Shown: piece by piece, positions 27,293 through 58,654 of the stretch
Position numbering within the stretch: position 1 is the stretch's first letter
How the letters are laid out: the number at the start of each line of letters is the position of its first letter
From: Octopus sinensis
Taxonomy: Eukaryota
Length of the DNA stretch: 64,000 nucleotides
Direction: 5' to 3'
Assembly: GCF_006345805.1 (NCBI RefSeq)
Contig: NC_043006.1
Span: 94,860,001-94,924,000 of the forward strand
Notes under the pieces: model-generated
Seen by the model: the letters and a program-made list of their open reading frames with translations, nothing else
Told to the model about the DNA's origin: nothing
Databases searched by the model: none
Made by a program: the position numbers and the translations under genes

Positions 27293-29534
27293 AGTTATAA
27301 GAAAAAGGAGAGCAACGGCAGTGTTAGCAAAAATAAGAGCCTGTATAAGAAGGTGAGTGACAATAACAGTGTGTTTTATGAAAACAATAGATAAAATTAG
27401 ACTATTGTTAAAAGTTTCCAAAACCGATATATTTATTGTATCCTTCTGTATCTACAACTGGTGAGAATCCTGTGTCAATAAGTGCTTTATTGAATATAGT
27501 CATTTATACAGACATACATATATCTATACGCAAACACACTATATATATGTATATATATGTATATATATATATATATAGATATATATATATATATAAATAT
27601 ATTTATATATATATATATATGTATATATATATATATATATATATGTATATATATATATATACTATATATATATATATGTGTGTATATATATATACATATA
27701 TATATGTGTGTATATATATATACATATATATAGGTATATATATATATATAATGTATATATGCATATATATAGGTATATATATATATATATAGGTATATAT
27801 ATATAATATATATATATATATATATATATAATATATATATATATATGCATATATATAGGTATATATATATATATATAGGTGTATATATATATATATATAT
27901 ATATATATATATACACATAGATATATATATATAAATATATATAGCATACATAAAATATTGTTATGCTCGAATTTCTTTGGGTTACTCCAAAACGTGTCTC
28001 TTATACGCTACTCTTGTATTGAGCACTTCTCCTTTGTTAGTAAAGAAACTAAATCTTGCACACACACAGACACGCACGCACAGACAAGCACACACACGCA
28101 CACACACACTTATTCACAAATACGTAAACAATTAACGCAATTTAGTGATACTCTATACTGTTGTCGGGCAATATTGGTATAGTCCCGATATGAATGAACA
28201 TTAATACTTATTAATAGTTTCCTGATTTTAGTGAGGACAGGATCAACCACTGAGCAATGTGGTATCTGCGTCTGTATACGAAGGTACATCGCTTCACGTA
28301 CAGTTACTGTAAATGAATGGGGTGTATTGTCTTGCGATGTGTTTGTAATCTGATACAATTTCATGCATAAATTTGCATATTTCTACTCATTAAAATCTAA
28401 GTTTATGCTAGAGTAGCTAGTCCTATAAAGGATTATAATTTCAATTTCATTTTCCGCAATCAGTGATTCATTTTCTTTGCGTAGATGAAGGTCAGGCAGA
28501 AAAAAAAAGATTCTACTCTGTTATTCGATGAGAGGTGTTTGGTTCCACTTGGTATGGCAGATGTTTGGAATCATTTCGGTTTTCATAAATGCTAAGTTAT
28601 AAAAATATTAAGAAAGTTGCAGCTTTTGATTATTACAATCTTTACTCTAGTGCTAAGAGCGTCGGCTACAACTTTGGCAGCACCAAAGGTAAGCAGGAGA
28701 CACATTTAAGGAATGCCTTAGAGTCTTCAGAATGCCAGTCAAATAATAACCAATATTACAAAACTTACGCGCATAAGTGTCTTGAAATTTACCTTCATTT
28801 TAAGAATACGTAGCTAACTCTATCGTAAAGTGAATGTAAAATTATTATAAACCCTACCAGCTCATTCAAACACGCAATATGCTTTAAAAGCGTTGAGATT
28901 AACATTGGTATAAATATCTTTAAACTTGTATTTAATAAAGACGTCATCGATAAAGCGGTTCCTTAGTGCAATAATGTTCCAGCTACGAACGAGTTCAACA
29001 AATATAATACGTTGTCTTCCAATACTTTTAGTATAAACTCTCAATGATTGACTGGTTCACGTCCACCATTTTCCGACATTTTAAATAAAATATTACCAGA
29101 ATTATTTTACGCCTGACAGGTGTGTCTTTCTCTACTACCTCCACAAATCTCACAGACAACGCTTTAGTGGGTTACATCTTAATCATAAAGATAAATATAA
29201 AAACACACGCTACGTTAATTGAGGCAGGTTGCGTACGGTTAAAATCCTTTGATAAGAACCTACTTGTAGATAAACAAGATTTGCACGAAATCATTTATTC
29301 TTCTCTAACTGCTAGACACGCGAAACCCCTTTAAAGTTGTAGCCGACGCTCTTAACAATTTCGGGCACTAGAGTATAGATTATGTGCCAACATAACCTGG
29401 CAGTCCTGGATTAGGACGCATGTTGCTGTAATTTAGCCCAAATAAAACATGGCCTCCAACTGGTTATACGACACGATGTGTGTCCTTATATTTTCGAACA
29501 AGGGAATCTAGCACCCCCACTCAGCTCAAAACAA

Positions 29535-29579
29535 TATGTGTATCACGATTTCCGGGTTATTTCTCTTCATCAGCACAGA
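29535..29579 (-). ncRNA. Minimal hammerhead ribozyme motif (left arm)
   Basis: Minus strand TCTGTG-CTGATGA-AGAGAAATAACCCG-GAAA-TCGTGA-TA-CACATA; stem II weakened. Confidence 0.6.
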
Positions 29580-29770
29580 ATAATTGTTCGGCTAGAGGTG
29601 GTGCTGCCAAATTCCCGTTCGAAATATATAGTTTTCAAATTGATAACTAGTCACTGATCTATAAATTAGAAAATTACTATTAAAACTATATCTTAAAATT
29701 ATATATTACTATTGAATACTATATATTTCGAACGGGAATTTGGCAGCGCCACCTGTAGCCGAACATGTAT

Positions 29771-29815
29771 TCTGTGCTGATGAAGGGAAATAACCCGGAA
29801 ATCGCGATACACAGA
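29771..29815 (+). ncRNA. Minimal type I hammerhead ribozyme motif (right arm)
   Basis: TCTGTG-CTGATGA-AGGG(AAATAA)CCCG-GAAA-TCGCGA-TA-CACAGA; 6-bp stem I and palindromic stem III ATCGCGAT. Confidence 0.8.
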
Positions 29816-32004
29816 TATTATTTTGAGCTGAGTGGGGATGCTAGATTCTCTTGTTCGAAAATATAAGGACAAAGATCATGTCGTATAGCCAACTGGAGAC
29901 TATGTCTCCTAGGGCTAAATTACAGCAACATTCGTCCTAAACCAGGACAGCCACGTTATGTTGGCAAACAATCTTCACTACAAAGTATTGTTGCTCAATA
30001 TCTCTCGTTGTGAGAATTACAAATAGTAATTTTCTAATCGGACATTAGAGTTCTAAATTCAAGATATTTATATAAAAGAGAAATGATCACGCCCCTGTCG
30101 TTATTTCTTCGTGATCATTCTTACTGATCTAGGCATCACAATAATATTAACATCAACATCAGATAGAAAAGAAATAACTATCATCAGTGTGTTAAAGTGT
30201 GATAAAAGCCACGAGTGTTTTCATAGATTTCTCTTTAGAAAGTAACAGTAACGGTGAAGTGTATATTTGTTTGTGTGTGTTTGCATGTGTATATGGCCCG
30301 CTTGTGTTAGTGTATTTCTATACATGTTTGTATTTGTGTTTGTGTGTTTATGTGTGTACAAGTGTGTGTATTAGTGTGTGTGTGTGTGTACGTATTTGGT
30401 TATGTGATTATGTGTTTGTCTGCTCGTGCATTTTGGAAGTCCACAGACTCCGTTAGACAAATTCATTCCAGATGCATTACAGAAATACGAACATTTCCTC
30501 GGACTCTAGGTTTTATCACCTAACGACTGAACTGAACTTGGAACACATTCATGTGGTTATCACCCCGGAAGTAATAGCTGACTCCCATGCATCGAAAAAC
30601 GTAAAATCACCAGATATTGTAAACTACGATAGACTTTCCTTAGAGTAGGCTGAGATGGTCACAGTTGGAACCCTTTTAGTAATCTGTCTGCTCGATCATC
30701 ATCAATAACAAATTGTTGGGAAAGCCTTTTAGTGCCACTCAATATGGTACACGTAATAAAATCTCGCTCAGTTCAGAACTGTTCTGGCTAGGGAACCCTA
30801 CGTATAATATTCATTCAAATGGACGACAGCACATAGTTACTTATTTTTATATCGTAATTTGAATTCTCCTTGATTTCCCCGAAACGGAAAAGTCATAAGA
30901 TTAGGGATTCGATCGATTATTAATGCCTGTTTTATGAATTTGAAAGTCATTTGACGTTTCCCTGTCGATGTGAGAGCATTAGTGTGCAACGCTCGGAAAC
31001 TTGTGACCCGACGAAACTGTTGGGAACAACTGGATTGGAAGATGGTTTATAAGAAAATCGAGTAAGTTCAGTTGTCAAAAAATTTAGAATCATCCAGTAC
31101 TTTGAACCTTTTTCCTTTTAGTTCTTCAGTGAAAAAGAGAGGGGGAAATGGGATAGACTCCTTGTTTCCGGGTAAATAAAAGATGATGAAACTCAAATAT
31201 AAAGGGGGATGGGCGAAATTGATGTGTCTGATGTAACAAGGTCCGAAATATGGCTTAGTGTCATTAAACGAGGTGAAGATTACAGGGAGGGAGAAAGTGA
31301 AGAACTGGACAGCATGATAGAAAGAAAAAAATACCTCAATTAAGCAAATATATAAGAACTTAGAGAAGTAGGAGGGGAATCAGTGGGTAGAGGGAAGAGT
31401 AGAAAAATCACAACCGCATCTAGTAAAACTATTCTTGTATAAAGAAGACATTTATAAATGTGTCTTAATTCTAAATGACTGAAATGTTTAGCTAGTACTT
31501 GCAACTAATTTACAATAAGTGGCTAAATATTTTGTATTTTTGTCGATGTTATTTTCTAAGATAATAACAGTTGGGTGAGCTTCATCTATAGTTGAAATTT
31601 GCTGAAGAAACCAAACAAAAACAATCTTAAATCACTTACGTATGTATTTGGATATATTTACACACTTATATACAAATATATACACACCCGTTTAATAAAT
31701 TGATTTATACAGTGTGAAAACTATTGATTTTTACGCAGCCTATTAATTTCTTACACTATTGAATACATTGTTAATAGTTATTGCTCAATAAATAATGATA
31801 TTAAATATAACACGTTAGATATAGCATTCTCGCTATTTACTGATAGATAACAGACACAATATAAGAAAAGCTGAGGCGACAACAACAATACGATACGATA
31901 TTTAGTGGCGACTCGTTTTCTGGCTCAAACCGTGCTACCACGCTCATCGTTTTAATTTTTCGCTGACGGGTTGGAGGTAATACATCTTTTCTAATAATAT
32001 TTTC

Positions 32005-57395: not shown

Positions 57396-57479
57396 GTATG
57401 TATGTCTCGTCTCTACTCATTTCTCCTTGGAGCAGGTTTCTAACGATTATGCTTTGCACCATCTTGGGAATCCATTTCT

Positions 57480-57720
57480 TTTTATTCTTTTATTTGTTTT
57501 AGTTATTGCTCCAGCATGACTGCGCCTTGCTGGGGCACCGCCTTTAATCGAGCATCTCCATCCCAAGACTTATTCTTTGTAAGTCTAGTAAGTATTCTTT
57601 CAGTCTCTTTTCCGGAAGCGCTAAGTGACGGGGACGTAAACACACCAACATTGATTGTCAAGCGATGTTGGGGGAACAGAGACACAAACAGACATATACA
57701 CACCACACACACACACACAC
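57480..57720 (-). mobile_element. SINE family A 3' half
   Basis: Reverse complement of the family A body and tail. Confidence 0.75.
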
Positions 57721-58479
57721 AACACATATATATATATATATATATATATATATATATTTACGTATGTATATATATATATGTATATATATATATACATACA
57801 TTTATATATATGTGTATGTATATATATATATATGTATATATATATATATATATATACACACACACTGCGTTTGCAATACTCCTTTTCGTTCGGCGTCAAC
57901 AGCCCTTCTTATCTTGTTTTTCCCTGTCCTGTCTTTTACTGTTTATATTTTTGTACTGTCGTTACTGTCCTGTTTTTTTACCATTTTTTTACCATTTTTT
58001 ACCCCTCTGCGAAAAGATCTCAGAATTTTAATTGATTTGCTTTTCGCAGGAAGGAAAGTTTCTTGTCGAAGATATGTCTCGCTTTTATCCTTCGAAACGT
58101 AGAGTAGATGAAATCATAGCGACTGAAGAAGGGTTTTTTTCTTTGTGTTAATTGTCCTGTACTCCATTTTTTTATTGTTTTTAAAAAAATGTCCAGTTCC
58201 TTGGGTTTGTGTCTATGATTTCGTTTCTCTTCGTGTTCGACGTCCCTTTGGTGTCCTGTACTCATATATGCGTGTATATGTACGTGTAGAGGTAGGTACG
58301 TACATATATGTTTATATATATGCATATGTTTTATTTCATTTATTAATATATATATACACAACACACACACACACACACACACATATAATATATATATATA
58401 TATATATATATGTGTGTGTGTGTGTGTGTGAAACAAGGTGGAAAAAAGAGTACTCAAATACCAGGGGTAGAGTAATATG

Positions 58480-58654
58480 CTTTATTTAAAAGCACCAGAA
58501 ATTCAACAAAACCTGTTACTTGGGGTTTCACGTTCCCGTTCGTCGGACAGTTTTGTTAAAAAGAAACAAAACAGTTAGCAAAACTGTCCGATGAACGGGA
58601 ACGTGAAACTCCGAGTAACAGGTTTTGCTGAATTTCTGCTGCTTTTAAATAAAG
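58480..58654. repeat. 80-bp-arm inverted repeat, hammerhead motif in each arm
   Basis: 58480-58559 versus 58575-58654. Confidence 0.9.
58577..58629 (+). ncRNA. Hammerhead-like motif with U4C core variant
   Basis: AGCAAAACTGT-CCGATGA-ACG(GGAA)CGT-GAAA-CTCCGAG-TA-ACAG-G-TTTTGCT. Confidence 0.7.

What the first reader, a model, noticed from the sequence alone, without database searches (positions are those of the whole stretch)
29385..58654. Recurrent outward-facing pairs of minimal hammerhead ribozymes inside inverted repeats
Seen: three unrelated inverted repeats (29385-29966, 50477-50627, 58480-58654) share one layout, a hammerhead reading rightwards on + in the right arm and its mirror on - in the left arm (left core lost at 50541). 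All have stem I, core, stem II, GAAA, a tiny (near-)palindromic stem III and UH. Established: Penelope-like element pLTRs carry minimal hammerheads thought to act as dimers, and they often form inverted structures. Inference: these are several families of non-autonomous PLE or retrozyme-like RNAs, consistent with the two GIY-YIG remnants here. A read-through transcript would bury the ribozyme in dsRNA, a built-in off switch and a potential ADAR substrate.
Basis: partly seen in the sequence, partly recalled or inferred. Interest (0 to 1): 0.75.

Follow-up and report, generated by a model that had tools for sequence, protein, structure and literature searches.

The report
Penelope insertion scars, one swapped-core hammerhead
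The three back-to-back hammerhead pairs are truncated ends of common Penelope-type jumping genes, likely left by the way these elements insert rather than built as an off-switch, but one family carries, in thousands of copies, a hammerhead motif with two paired core letters swapped that is predicted, not shown, to cut RNA.

Summary
The three inverted repeats and their hammerhead motifs are real. They are 5'-truncated, head-to-head insertions of three Penelope-like element (PLE) families. B (50.5 kb) and C (58.5 kb) are 3' ends of coding PLEs: Neptune-type with a 1042-codon open frame, and Hydra-type. A (29.4 kb) is a 353-bp non-coding tandem unit, retrozyme-like. The outward layout is a published PLE trait. 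In sampled copies all 57 inversion junctions differ, 48 of 49 classifiable pairs have the tail on one arm only, and only 21 of 82 copies have a hammerhead in both arms. This fits an insertion by-product, not a selected off-switch. The window's B repeat is a passenger in a 2-kb Helitron (492 exact junction copies). The notable part is B's core, GUGAACA: a natural G3:C8 swap in 5,209 pattern matches. The nearest sister family keeps C3:G8 and shows further compensatory stem changes. I found this swap in print only as a lab mutant (Lünse 2017 unreadable). The scan had already noted it on other DNA (9 notes). No cleavage or editing data were available.

The parts
29361..29374 (.). Left copy of a ~14-bp target-site duplication of insert A (right copy 30038-30051, 12 of 14 letters alike)
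   Evidence: read from the flanks
29375..29680 (-). Family A left arm, short (tail-less) 3' end at the left; hammerhead at about 29537-29579 with a stem II change and a 2-nt stem I deletion
29712..30037 (+). Family A right arm, long (tailed) 3' end; part of a 353-bp non-coding tandem unit
29771..29815 (+). Type I minimal hammerhead A: canonical CUGAUGA, extra A, 3-bp stem II, palindromic stem III, A17 at 29809
   Evidence: dimer fold pairs the palindromes
49918..51930 (-). Non-autonomous Helitron (5' TC at 51930; 3' hairpin and CTAG at 49918; in TA repeats) that carries the B inverted repeat
   Evidence: 492 exact junction copies
50409..50541 (-). Family B left arm with tail; core lost at the junction; ~50-bp internal deletion specific to this copy
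50545..50681 (+). Family B right arm, tail-less 3' end of a Neptune-type PLE, ending in a TA repeat
50553..50603 (+). Hammerhead B with swapped core G3:C8 (GTGAACA, 50560-50566), extra G, 5-bp stem II, palindromic stem III, U17 at 50596
58427..58559 (-). Family C left arm with tail; hammerhead core CCGACGA at 58546-58540
58575..58654 (+). Family C right arm, tail-less 3' end of a Hydra-type PLE; hammerhead 58580-58626, core CCGATGA (U4C), A17 at 58617
17110..17423 (+). Solo 3' end of family D (nearest sister of B found), hammerhead 17260-17306 with C3:G8 and A9C; used as the comparison for the swap

Best explanation
The three repeats are 5'-truncated ends of Penelope-like retroelements, and the outward-facing layout is likely a by-product of insertion. 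Shown: B and C are the 3' ends of coding PLE families, A is a 353-bp tandem non-coding unit with the same two 3' ends, every sampled inversion has its own junction, and one arm carries the tail while the other lacks it. Inferred mechanism: the PLE protein nicks both strands of an AT-rich target. Each 3'-OH primes reverse transcription, one at the distal and one at the proximal start site in the RNA. Both cDNAs stop early and are joined head to head, which puts a sense copy pointing outward at each end. The hammerhead is included only because it lies 50-230 nt inside the short 3' end. It is inherited from the parent element, where it would process tandem transcripts slowly as a dimer or with the element's protein. 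The genomic copies run through the cut site, so most templates were uncut or re-joined. In family B the core pair is swapped to G3:C8, a compensated change that likely keeps weak activity. The window's B copy was then captured and spread by a Helitron.
For: C: 18 of 20 loci found with the endonuclease region have the C hammerhead downstream on the same strand, mostly ~1.1 kb after an RT-CxCX5C-GIY-YIG frame. B: open frames of 722-1042 codons with RT, CX3CxxC, GIY-YIG and CCHH motifs; 11 of 12 best endonuclease loci have the GTGAACAG hammerhead ~1 kb downstream, and the twelfth locus ends too early. A: period 351-353 in 4 of 30 loci; no PLE protein match in 60 loci. Architecture: outward inverted partner in 57 of 82 sampled copies, inward in 1; 57 of 57 junctions distinct; long+short ends in 48 of 49 classifiable pairs; both arms complete in 21 of 82. 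Swap: G3 in 97 and C8 in 98 of the first 100 listed of 5,209 matches (counted by eye); 0 matches to the canonical-core version. Sister family D (53-54% protein identity) has C3:G8. On a 10-row B/B2/D alignment 93.6% of cells pair and 5 of 11 pairs change on both sides, against at most 1 when partners are slid. Papers: inverted 5'-truncated copy and one-sided tail (PMC8557442, PMC3846280, passages); dual minimal hammerheads on opposite strands (PMC4209133, parts 1-2); both strands cut and extended, two RT starts, C3G/G8C partial rescue, ribozyme not needed for insertion in vitro (PMC11167929, parts 1-2).
Against: No cleavage or RNA-end data. The two-ended priming step rests on one in vitro study of a different PLE clade. 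No parent ORF was found for A. The C sample was best-hit biased toward copies ending like the window's. The covariation rests on three lineages, so it reflects about one change per pair, not many independent events. The dominant D subfamily spread with A9C (82 of 100 listed) and roughly half of the listed C copies have U4C, so catalysis may be under weak selection, and B's U17 triplet is a poor substrate (recalled). Pfam and PDB sequence searches gave no hit for the ORFs; the domain calls rest on motifs read by eye.
Confidence: 0.85

Rival explanations
1. One reading: the inverted repeats are functional non-autonomous RNAs in which the antisense arm buries the ribozyme as a built-in off-switch that ADAR editing could release.
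For: The hairpins are very stable and, in either direction of transcription, the antisense arm is made before the sense hammerhead (geometry). One B repeat is present in 492 exact copies.
Against: 57 of 57 junctions differ, and only 21 of 82 copies have two hammerheads. The one fixed repeat rides in a Helitron and has lost one core. B and C have coding parents. The layout is the published PLE insertion pattern.
Confidence: 0.05
2. The inversions arise by self-priming or fold-back of the cDNA (or on an antisense template) rather than by priming at both target ends.
For: Some junctions are short palindromes (for example L092, L112). PMC3846280 (discussion passage) argues for self-priming on an antisense template.
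Against: A fold-back copy of one cDNA does not by itself explain why the inverted arm ends at the other fixed start site in 48 of 49 pairs. PMC11167929 shows both target strands cut and extended.
Confidence: 0.2
3. B's G3:C8 motif is a dead or non-catalytic relic: the fold is kept for protein binding or by founder effect and does not cut.
For: U17 triplet; sister family D thrives with A9C; copies span the cut site; the ribozyme was not needed for insertion in vitro (PMC11167929).
Against: Both partners of the tertiary pair changed together, with G3:C8 also in an old related family B2 (4 of 6 aligned copies) whose stem II matches B in 10 of 10 columns while loop II matches in 2 of 8 and the downstream part in 60 of 108.
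Confidence: 0.35

Closest known systems
Minimal type I hammerheads in PLE pseudo-LTRs (Cervera and de la Peña 2014, PMC4209133)
   Same: Type I layout, extra nucleotide between 9 and 10.1, palindromic stem III, thousands of mostly solo copies, pairs 100-700 bp apart on opposite strands, a natural U3:A8 covariation.
   Different: Family B has G3:C8, which that paper does not report; C has U4C and D has A9C subfamilies.
Neptune-clade PLEs (Craig et al. 2021, PMC8557442)
   Same: Family B: RT, CX3CxxC linker, C-terminal GIY-YIG, CCHH; inverted 5'-truncated copy; one-sided tail; TA targets.
   Different: Tail of about 60 nt instead of 30-40; swapped ribozyme core. Neptune versus Nematis was not separated by a tree.
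Hydra-clade PLEs (Craig et al. 2021, section 11)
   Same: Family C: CxCX5C linker, DKT motif, CxxC and CxH around E/N, no CCHH, TA insertion, hammerhead present.
   Different: Long (~1.1 kb) 3' UTR; U4C subfamily; RWK motif not seen in the pieces examined.
Non-LTR retrozymes (Cervera and de la Peña 2020, PMC7229834; bioRxiv 10.64898/2026.07.22.740005)
   Same: Family A: ~350-bp non-coding unit with one type I hammerhead, partial tandems up to 3.5 units.
   Different: Minimal rather than canonical hammerhead; mostly sub-unit to 1.5-unit copies with PLE-type inversion and tail; circular RNA not tested.
Engineered C3G/G8C hammerhead (PMC11167929; review PMC8495972)
   Same: Same swapped pair; partial rescue of cleavage, including in a PLE hammerhead.
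   Different: Here natural, fixed in a young family with intact ORFs.
Non-autonomous Helitrons (definition recalled)
   Same: 5' TC, 3' hairpin plus CTAG, A/T target, captured genomic fragments.
   Different: The cargo is a PLE inverted repeat with one swapped-core hammerhead.

Membership tests
Type I minimal hammerhead | Three stems around the core, type I topology | tested here: met
Type I minimal hammerhead | Core CUGANGA...GAAA...UH | tested here: not met
   Met by A only; B is GUGAACA (compensated 3:8 swap) and the window's C is CCGAYGA
Type I minimal hammerhead | Watson-Crick pair between positions 3 and 8 | tested here: met
   GC 6, CG 4, none unpaired in 10 rows
Type I minimal hammerhead | Palindromic stem III allowing a dimer | tested here: met
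   Palindromic in A and B, near-palindromic in C; co-fold pairs A's palindromes, while B and C co-folds did not give the dimer fold as the minimum
Type I minimal hammerhead | Site-specific self-cleavage | not testable with these tools
   Only contigs available, no raw reads
EN+ PLE, Neptune type (family B) | One ORF with RT, CX2-5CxxC linker, C-terminal GIY-YIG with CCHH | tested here: met
   L223 1042 codons, L202, L203, L224, L225, motifs read by eye; Pfam and PDB gave no hit
EN+ PLE, Neptune type (family B) | Placement in the RT tree | not tested
   No reference PLE set held
EN+ PLE, Hydra clade (family C) | CxCX5C linker, DKT, no CCHH, CxxC/CxH, TA targeting | tested here: met
EN+ PLE (all three families) | 5' truncation, inverted copy at the 5' side, tail at one end only | tested here: met
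   57 of 82 inverted; 48 of 49 one-tailed
Non-LTR retrozyme (family A) | 150-400 bp non-coding tandem unit with a type I hammerhead | tested here: met
   353-bp unit, no ORF, tandems in 4 of 30 loci
Non-LTR retrozyme (family A) | Expressed as monomeric linear and circular RNA | not testable with these tools
   No run on record as RNA
Non-autonomous Helitron (carrier of B) | 5' TC, 3' hairpin and CTRR, no TSD, A/T target, shared ends | tested here: met
   Ends read; the 3' end is shared by 27 of 30 loci, and the 5' end is reached in about half

The most novel reading that the evidence does not exclude
A young Neptune-type PLE with intact reading frames carries a working natural G3:C8 hammerhead, not yet in print and invisible to CUGANGA descriptors, in more than 5,000 copies. 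Together with sister families that fixed A9C and U4C, it shows PLE ribozyme cores drifting with compensation under protein-assisted catalysis. The strict one-tail rule (48 of 49) records two-ended priming from two RT start sites in one insertion event.
Probability: 0.4. Interest if true: 0.55.

Novelty: new variant of a known kind. Interest (0 to 1): 0.4.

Why it matters
The paired layout itself adds little: it is how PLEs insert. Two points are useful. First, a natural G3:C8 core would complete the set of Watson-Crick pairs seen at this position beyond C3:G8 and U3:A8, and it means hammerhead censuses miss thousands of copies. It sits in a family with intact ORFs, so the open question of what PLE hammerheads do can be tested with a matched protein and RNA, using sister family D as a natural control. 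Second, the near-strict long-end/short-end pairing in three unrelated families gives a countable genomic signature for testing how PLE inversions form.

Tried and rejected
Rfam scan: no hammerhead among the 150 rows shown. Canonical-core version of B: 0 matches. The window's GIY-YIG remnant as parent: of 30 related loci only one held a C copy, a separate insertion in TA repeats. A hammerhead with a GAGC stem (family E) first seemed to be the end of family D; alignment of D's downstream DNA showed D ends ~700 bp after the stop, so E is a separate insertion. Other hits of the generic G3:C8 pattern (8,190 against 717 for the reversed control): of 13 non-B hits fetched, 3 were SINE heads, 2 an old B relative (B2), and 8 gave no hammerhead. 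No PLE ORF beside 60 A loci. Pfam and PDB searches of the PLE proteins: no hit. Sequencing runs: no RNA holder listed, contigs only, so no RNA ends or editing could be read; some A>G and T>C differences enriched in two runs came with an A>C difference of the same pattern, so I treat them as copy variants. No pile-up of 5' truncations at the cut site was evident (small sample). Lünse et al. 2017 and Przybilski and Hammann 2007 are not held; no supplements were read, and the alignments in those of PMC4209133, PMC3088659 and PMC8557442 could hold a natural G3:C8 case. Searches for a natural G3:C8 in print.
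Full report
Observation. The three inverted repeats are present, with arms about 88-92% alike. A relaxed type I hammerhead scan gave 5 hits against 0.23 per shuffle (30 shuffles); four are in these repeats, and A's left copy is found by pattern. The cores differ: A CUGAUGA, B GUGAACA, C CCGAYGA. The genome is 2.72 Gb in 13,516 contigs. That it is an octopus is my inference from its size and repeat style and from earlier scan notes; I did not test it.

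Family A (29375-30037). The search gave 2,517 candidates, of which 40 were scored. Copies come from a 353-bp unit with no ORF. Period 351-353 tandems occur in 4 of 30 loci, up to 3.5 units. No PLE protein matched in 60 loci. The window insert has a ~14-bp target duplication. It fits a non-autonomous, retrozyme-like unit moved by a PLE enzyme; circular RNA is untested.

Family C (about 58427-58654). A gapped pattern has 5,083 matches, roughly half U4 and half C4 in the 100 listed. One long copy reached an endonuclease frame. Of 20 loci found with that region, 18 carry the C hammerhead downstream on the same strand. The protein has RT motifs, DKT, a CxCX5C linker, CxxC and CxH, and no CCHH, which matches the Hydra clade as defined in section 11 of PMC8557442. 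U4C is known as a viroid variant with reduced in vitro activity (PMC3088659, passage).

Family B (50409-50681). The 40 best matches were all 100% identical, and 39 showed the inverted arm at the same place. They share about 2 kb, from 49918 to 51930, with Helitron ends on the minus strand. The junction has 492 exact copies. So this repeat was made once and spread as cargo. Free copies are far more common: 5,209 matches to a pattern that leaves positions 3 and 7-9 open, with G3 in 97 and C8 in 98 of the 100 listed, counted by eye; 70 of 80 copies in my loci read GTGAACAG; the canonical version has 0 matches. Longer copies lead to open frames of 722-1042 codons with RT, CX3CxxC, GIY-YIG and CCHH motifs. 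At least 60 endonuclease copies are 93-100% identical to the query, so the family is young. In contigs of four runs under four organism labels, no change at the core positions was listed at 5% or more.

Is the swap compensatory? The next family in an RT search (D, 53-54% identical) ends ~700 bp after its stop and has the same ribozyme layout with C3:G8, in 19 of 20 loci. It has 3,027 pattern matches; of 100 listed, 17 have A9, 82 C9 and 1 U9 (counted by eye). An old relative, B2, has G3:C8 with C7 in 4 of 6 aligned copies; its stem II agrees with B in 10 of 10 columns, loop II in 2 of 8 and the downstream part in 60 of 108. On 10 chosen rows, 93.6% of cells pair, and 5 of 11 pairs change on both sides: 3:8, one in stem I, two in stem II, one in stem III. 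Slid controls give at most 2 such pairs. These are three lineages, so the count is about one event per pair. Against activity: D spread with A9C, B has a UUU triplet (poor, recalled), and genomic copies span the cut site.

Why the pairs face outward. In samples of 25 B, 29 A and 28 C copies (duplicates of one insertion dropped: 5, 1 and 2; C biased to best hits), 57 of 82 have an inverted copy at their 5' side and 1 at the 3' side. All 57 junctions differ, 21 of 82 have the whole hammerhead in both arms, and 48 of 49 classifiable pairs have one long and one short 3' end. Inverted 5'-truncated copies and a one-sided tail are described PLE traits (PMC8557442 and PMC3846280, passages). Dual minimal hammerheads on opposite strands were noted in 2014 (PMC4209133, parts 1-2 of 4). 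PMC11167929 (parts 1-2 of 4) shows a PLE protein cutting and extending both strands, two RT start sites that bound the tail, a protein-assisted ribozyme that is not needed for insertion, and partial rescue by C3G/G8C. Priming at both target ends, one from each start site, gives exactly the outward geometry; this step is inferred. Self-priming (PMC3846280) is the rival.

Off-switch and editing. A read-through RNA would form a long hairpin and could be an ADAR substrate like any inverted repeat (PMC9989829, passages). But the inversion is not part of the element's RNA and is not conserved between copies, so there is no sign of design. No run on record as RNA and no raw reads were available.

Novelty. 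The layout is known. Natural U3:A8 is published (PMC3088659 section 8; PMC4209133). I found G3:C8 only as a lab mutant (searches; passages; PMC6155905 and PMC6765202 passages showed none). Lünse 2017 was not held and no supplements were read. I reached the swap; the scan's notes show it was recorded before in at least 9 findings and suggested checking sister families, which I did. Other papers seen: bioRxiv 10.64898/2026.07.22.740005 (parts 1-2 of 5) and PMC7229834 (passages).

Verdict. Observation confirmed; interpretation partly supported; new variant of a known kind; interest 0.4, carried by the swapped core and the one-tail rule rather than by the pairing.

Noticed in passing
window 17110-17423 (+): Solo 3' end of PLE family D with an A9C hammerhead; the A9C subfamily dominates (82 of 100 listed of 3,027 matches).
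   Followed up: yes
window 49918-51930 (-): Non-autonomous Helitron carrying a PLE inverted repeat, a SINE-like piece and a ~107-bp tandem; at least 492 copies.
   Followed up: yes
window 7962-8302 (+) and 23633-23908 (-): Two decayed GIY-YIG remnants of Hydra-like PLEs, 28-30% identical to family C's endonuclease.
   Followed up: partly
window 5560-5666 (+): U6 snRNA-like sequence (93 bits, above the Rfam cut-off) next to a SINE-like head; gene or retrocopy not determined.
   Followed up: no
L299:3480-3540 and 14 other loci: A further abundant minimal hammerhead family (E) with a GAGC stem II and a CG stem III, in both U4 and C4 forms.
   Followed up: partly
L248, L249, L256-L262: Old, decayed relative of family B (B2) that also has G3:C8, with C at position 7.
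   Followed up: partly
window 24844-25140 and 41103-41186: Two more inverted repeats without a hammerhead hit (84-bp arms 99% alike; an 84-bp hairpin).
   Followed up: no
window 156-2060, 8649-11569, 46472-48330, 18411-19463, 42404-42841: Broken LINE-type RT frames and two mariner transposase remnants.
   Followed up: no
L202:4780-5005: The B tail reads as a short open frame starting after the hammerhead, as expected if the tail is the start of the ORF; the 5' end of a full element was not found in L223.
   Followed up: partly
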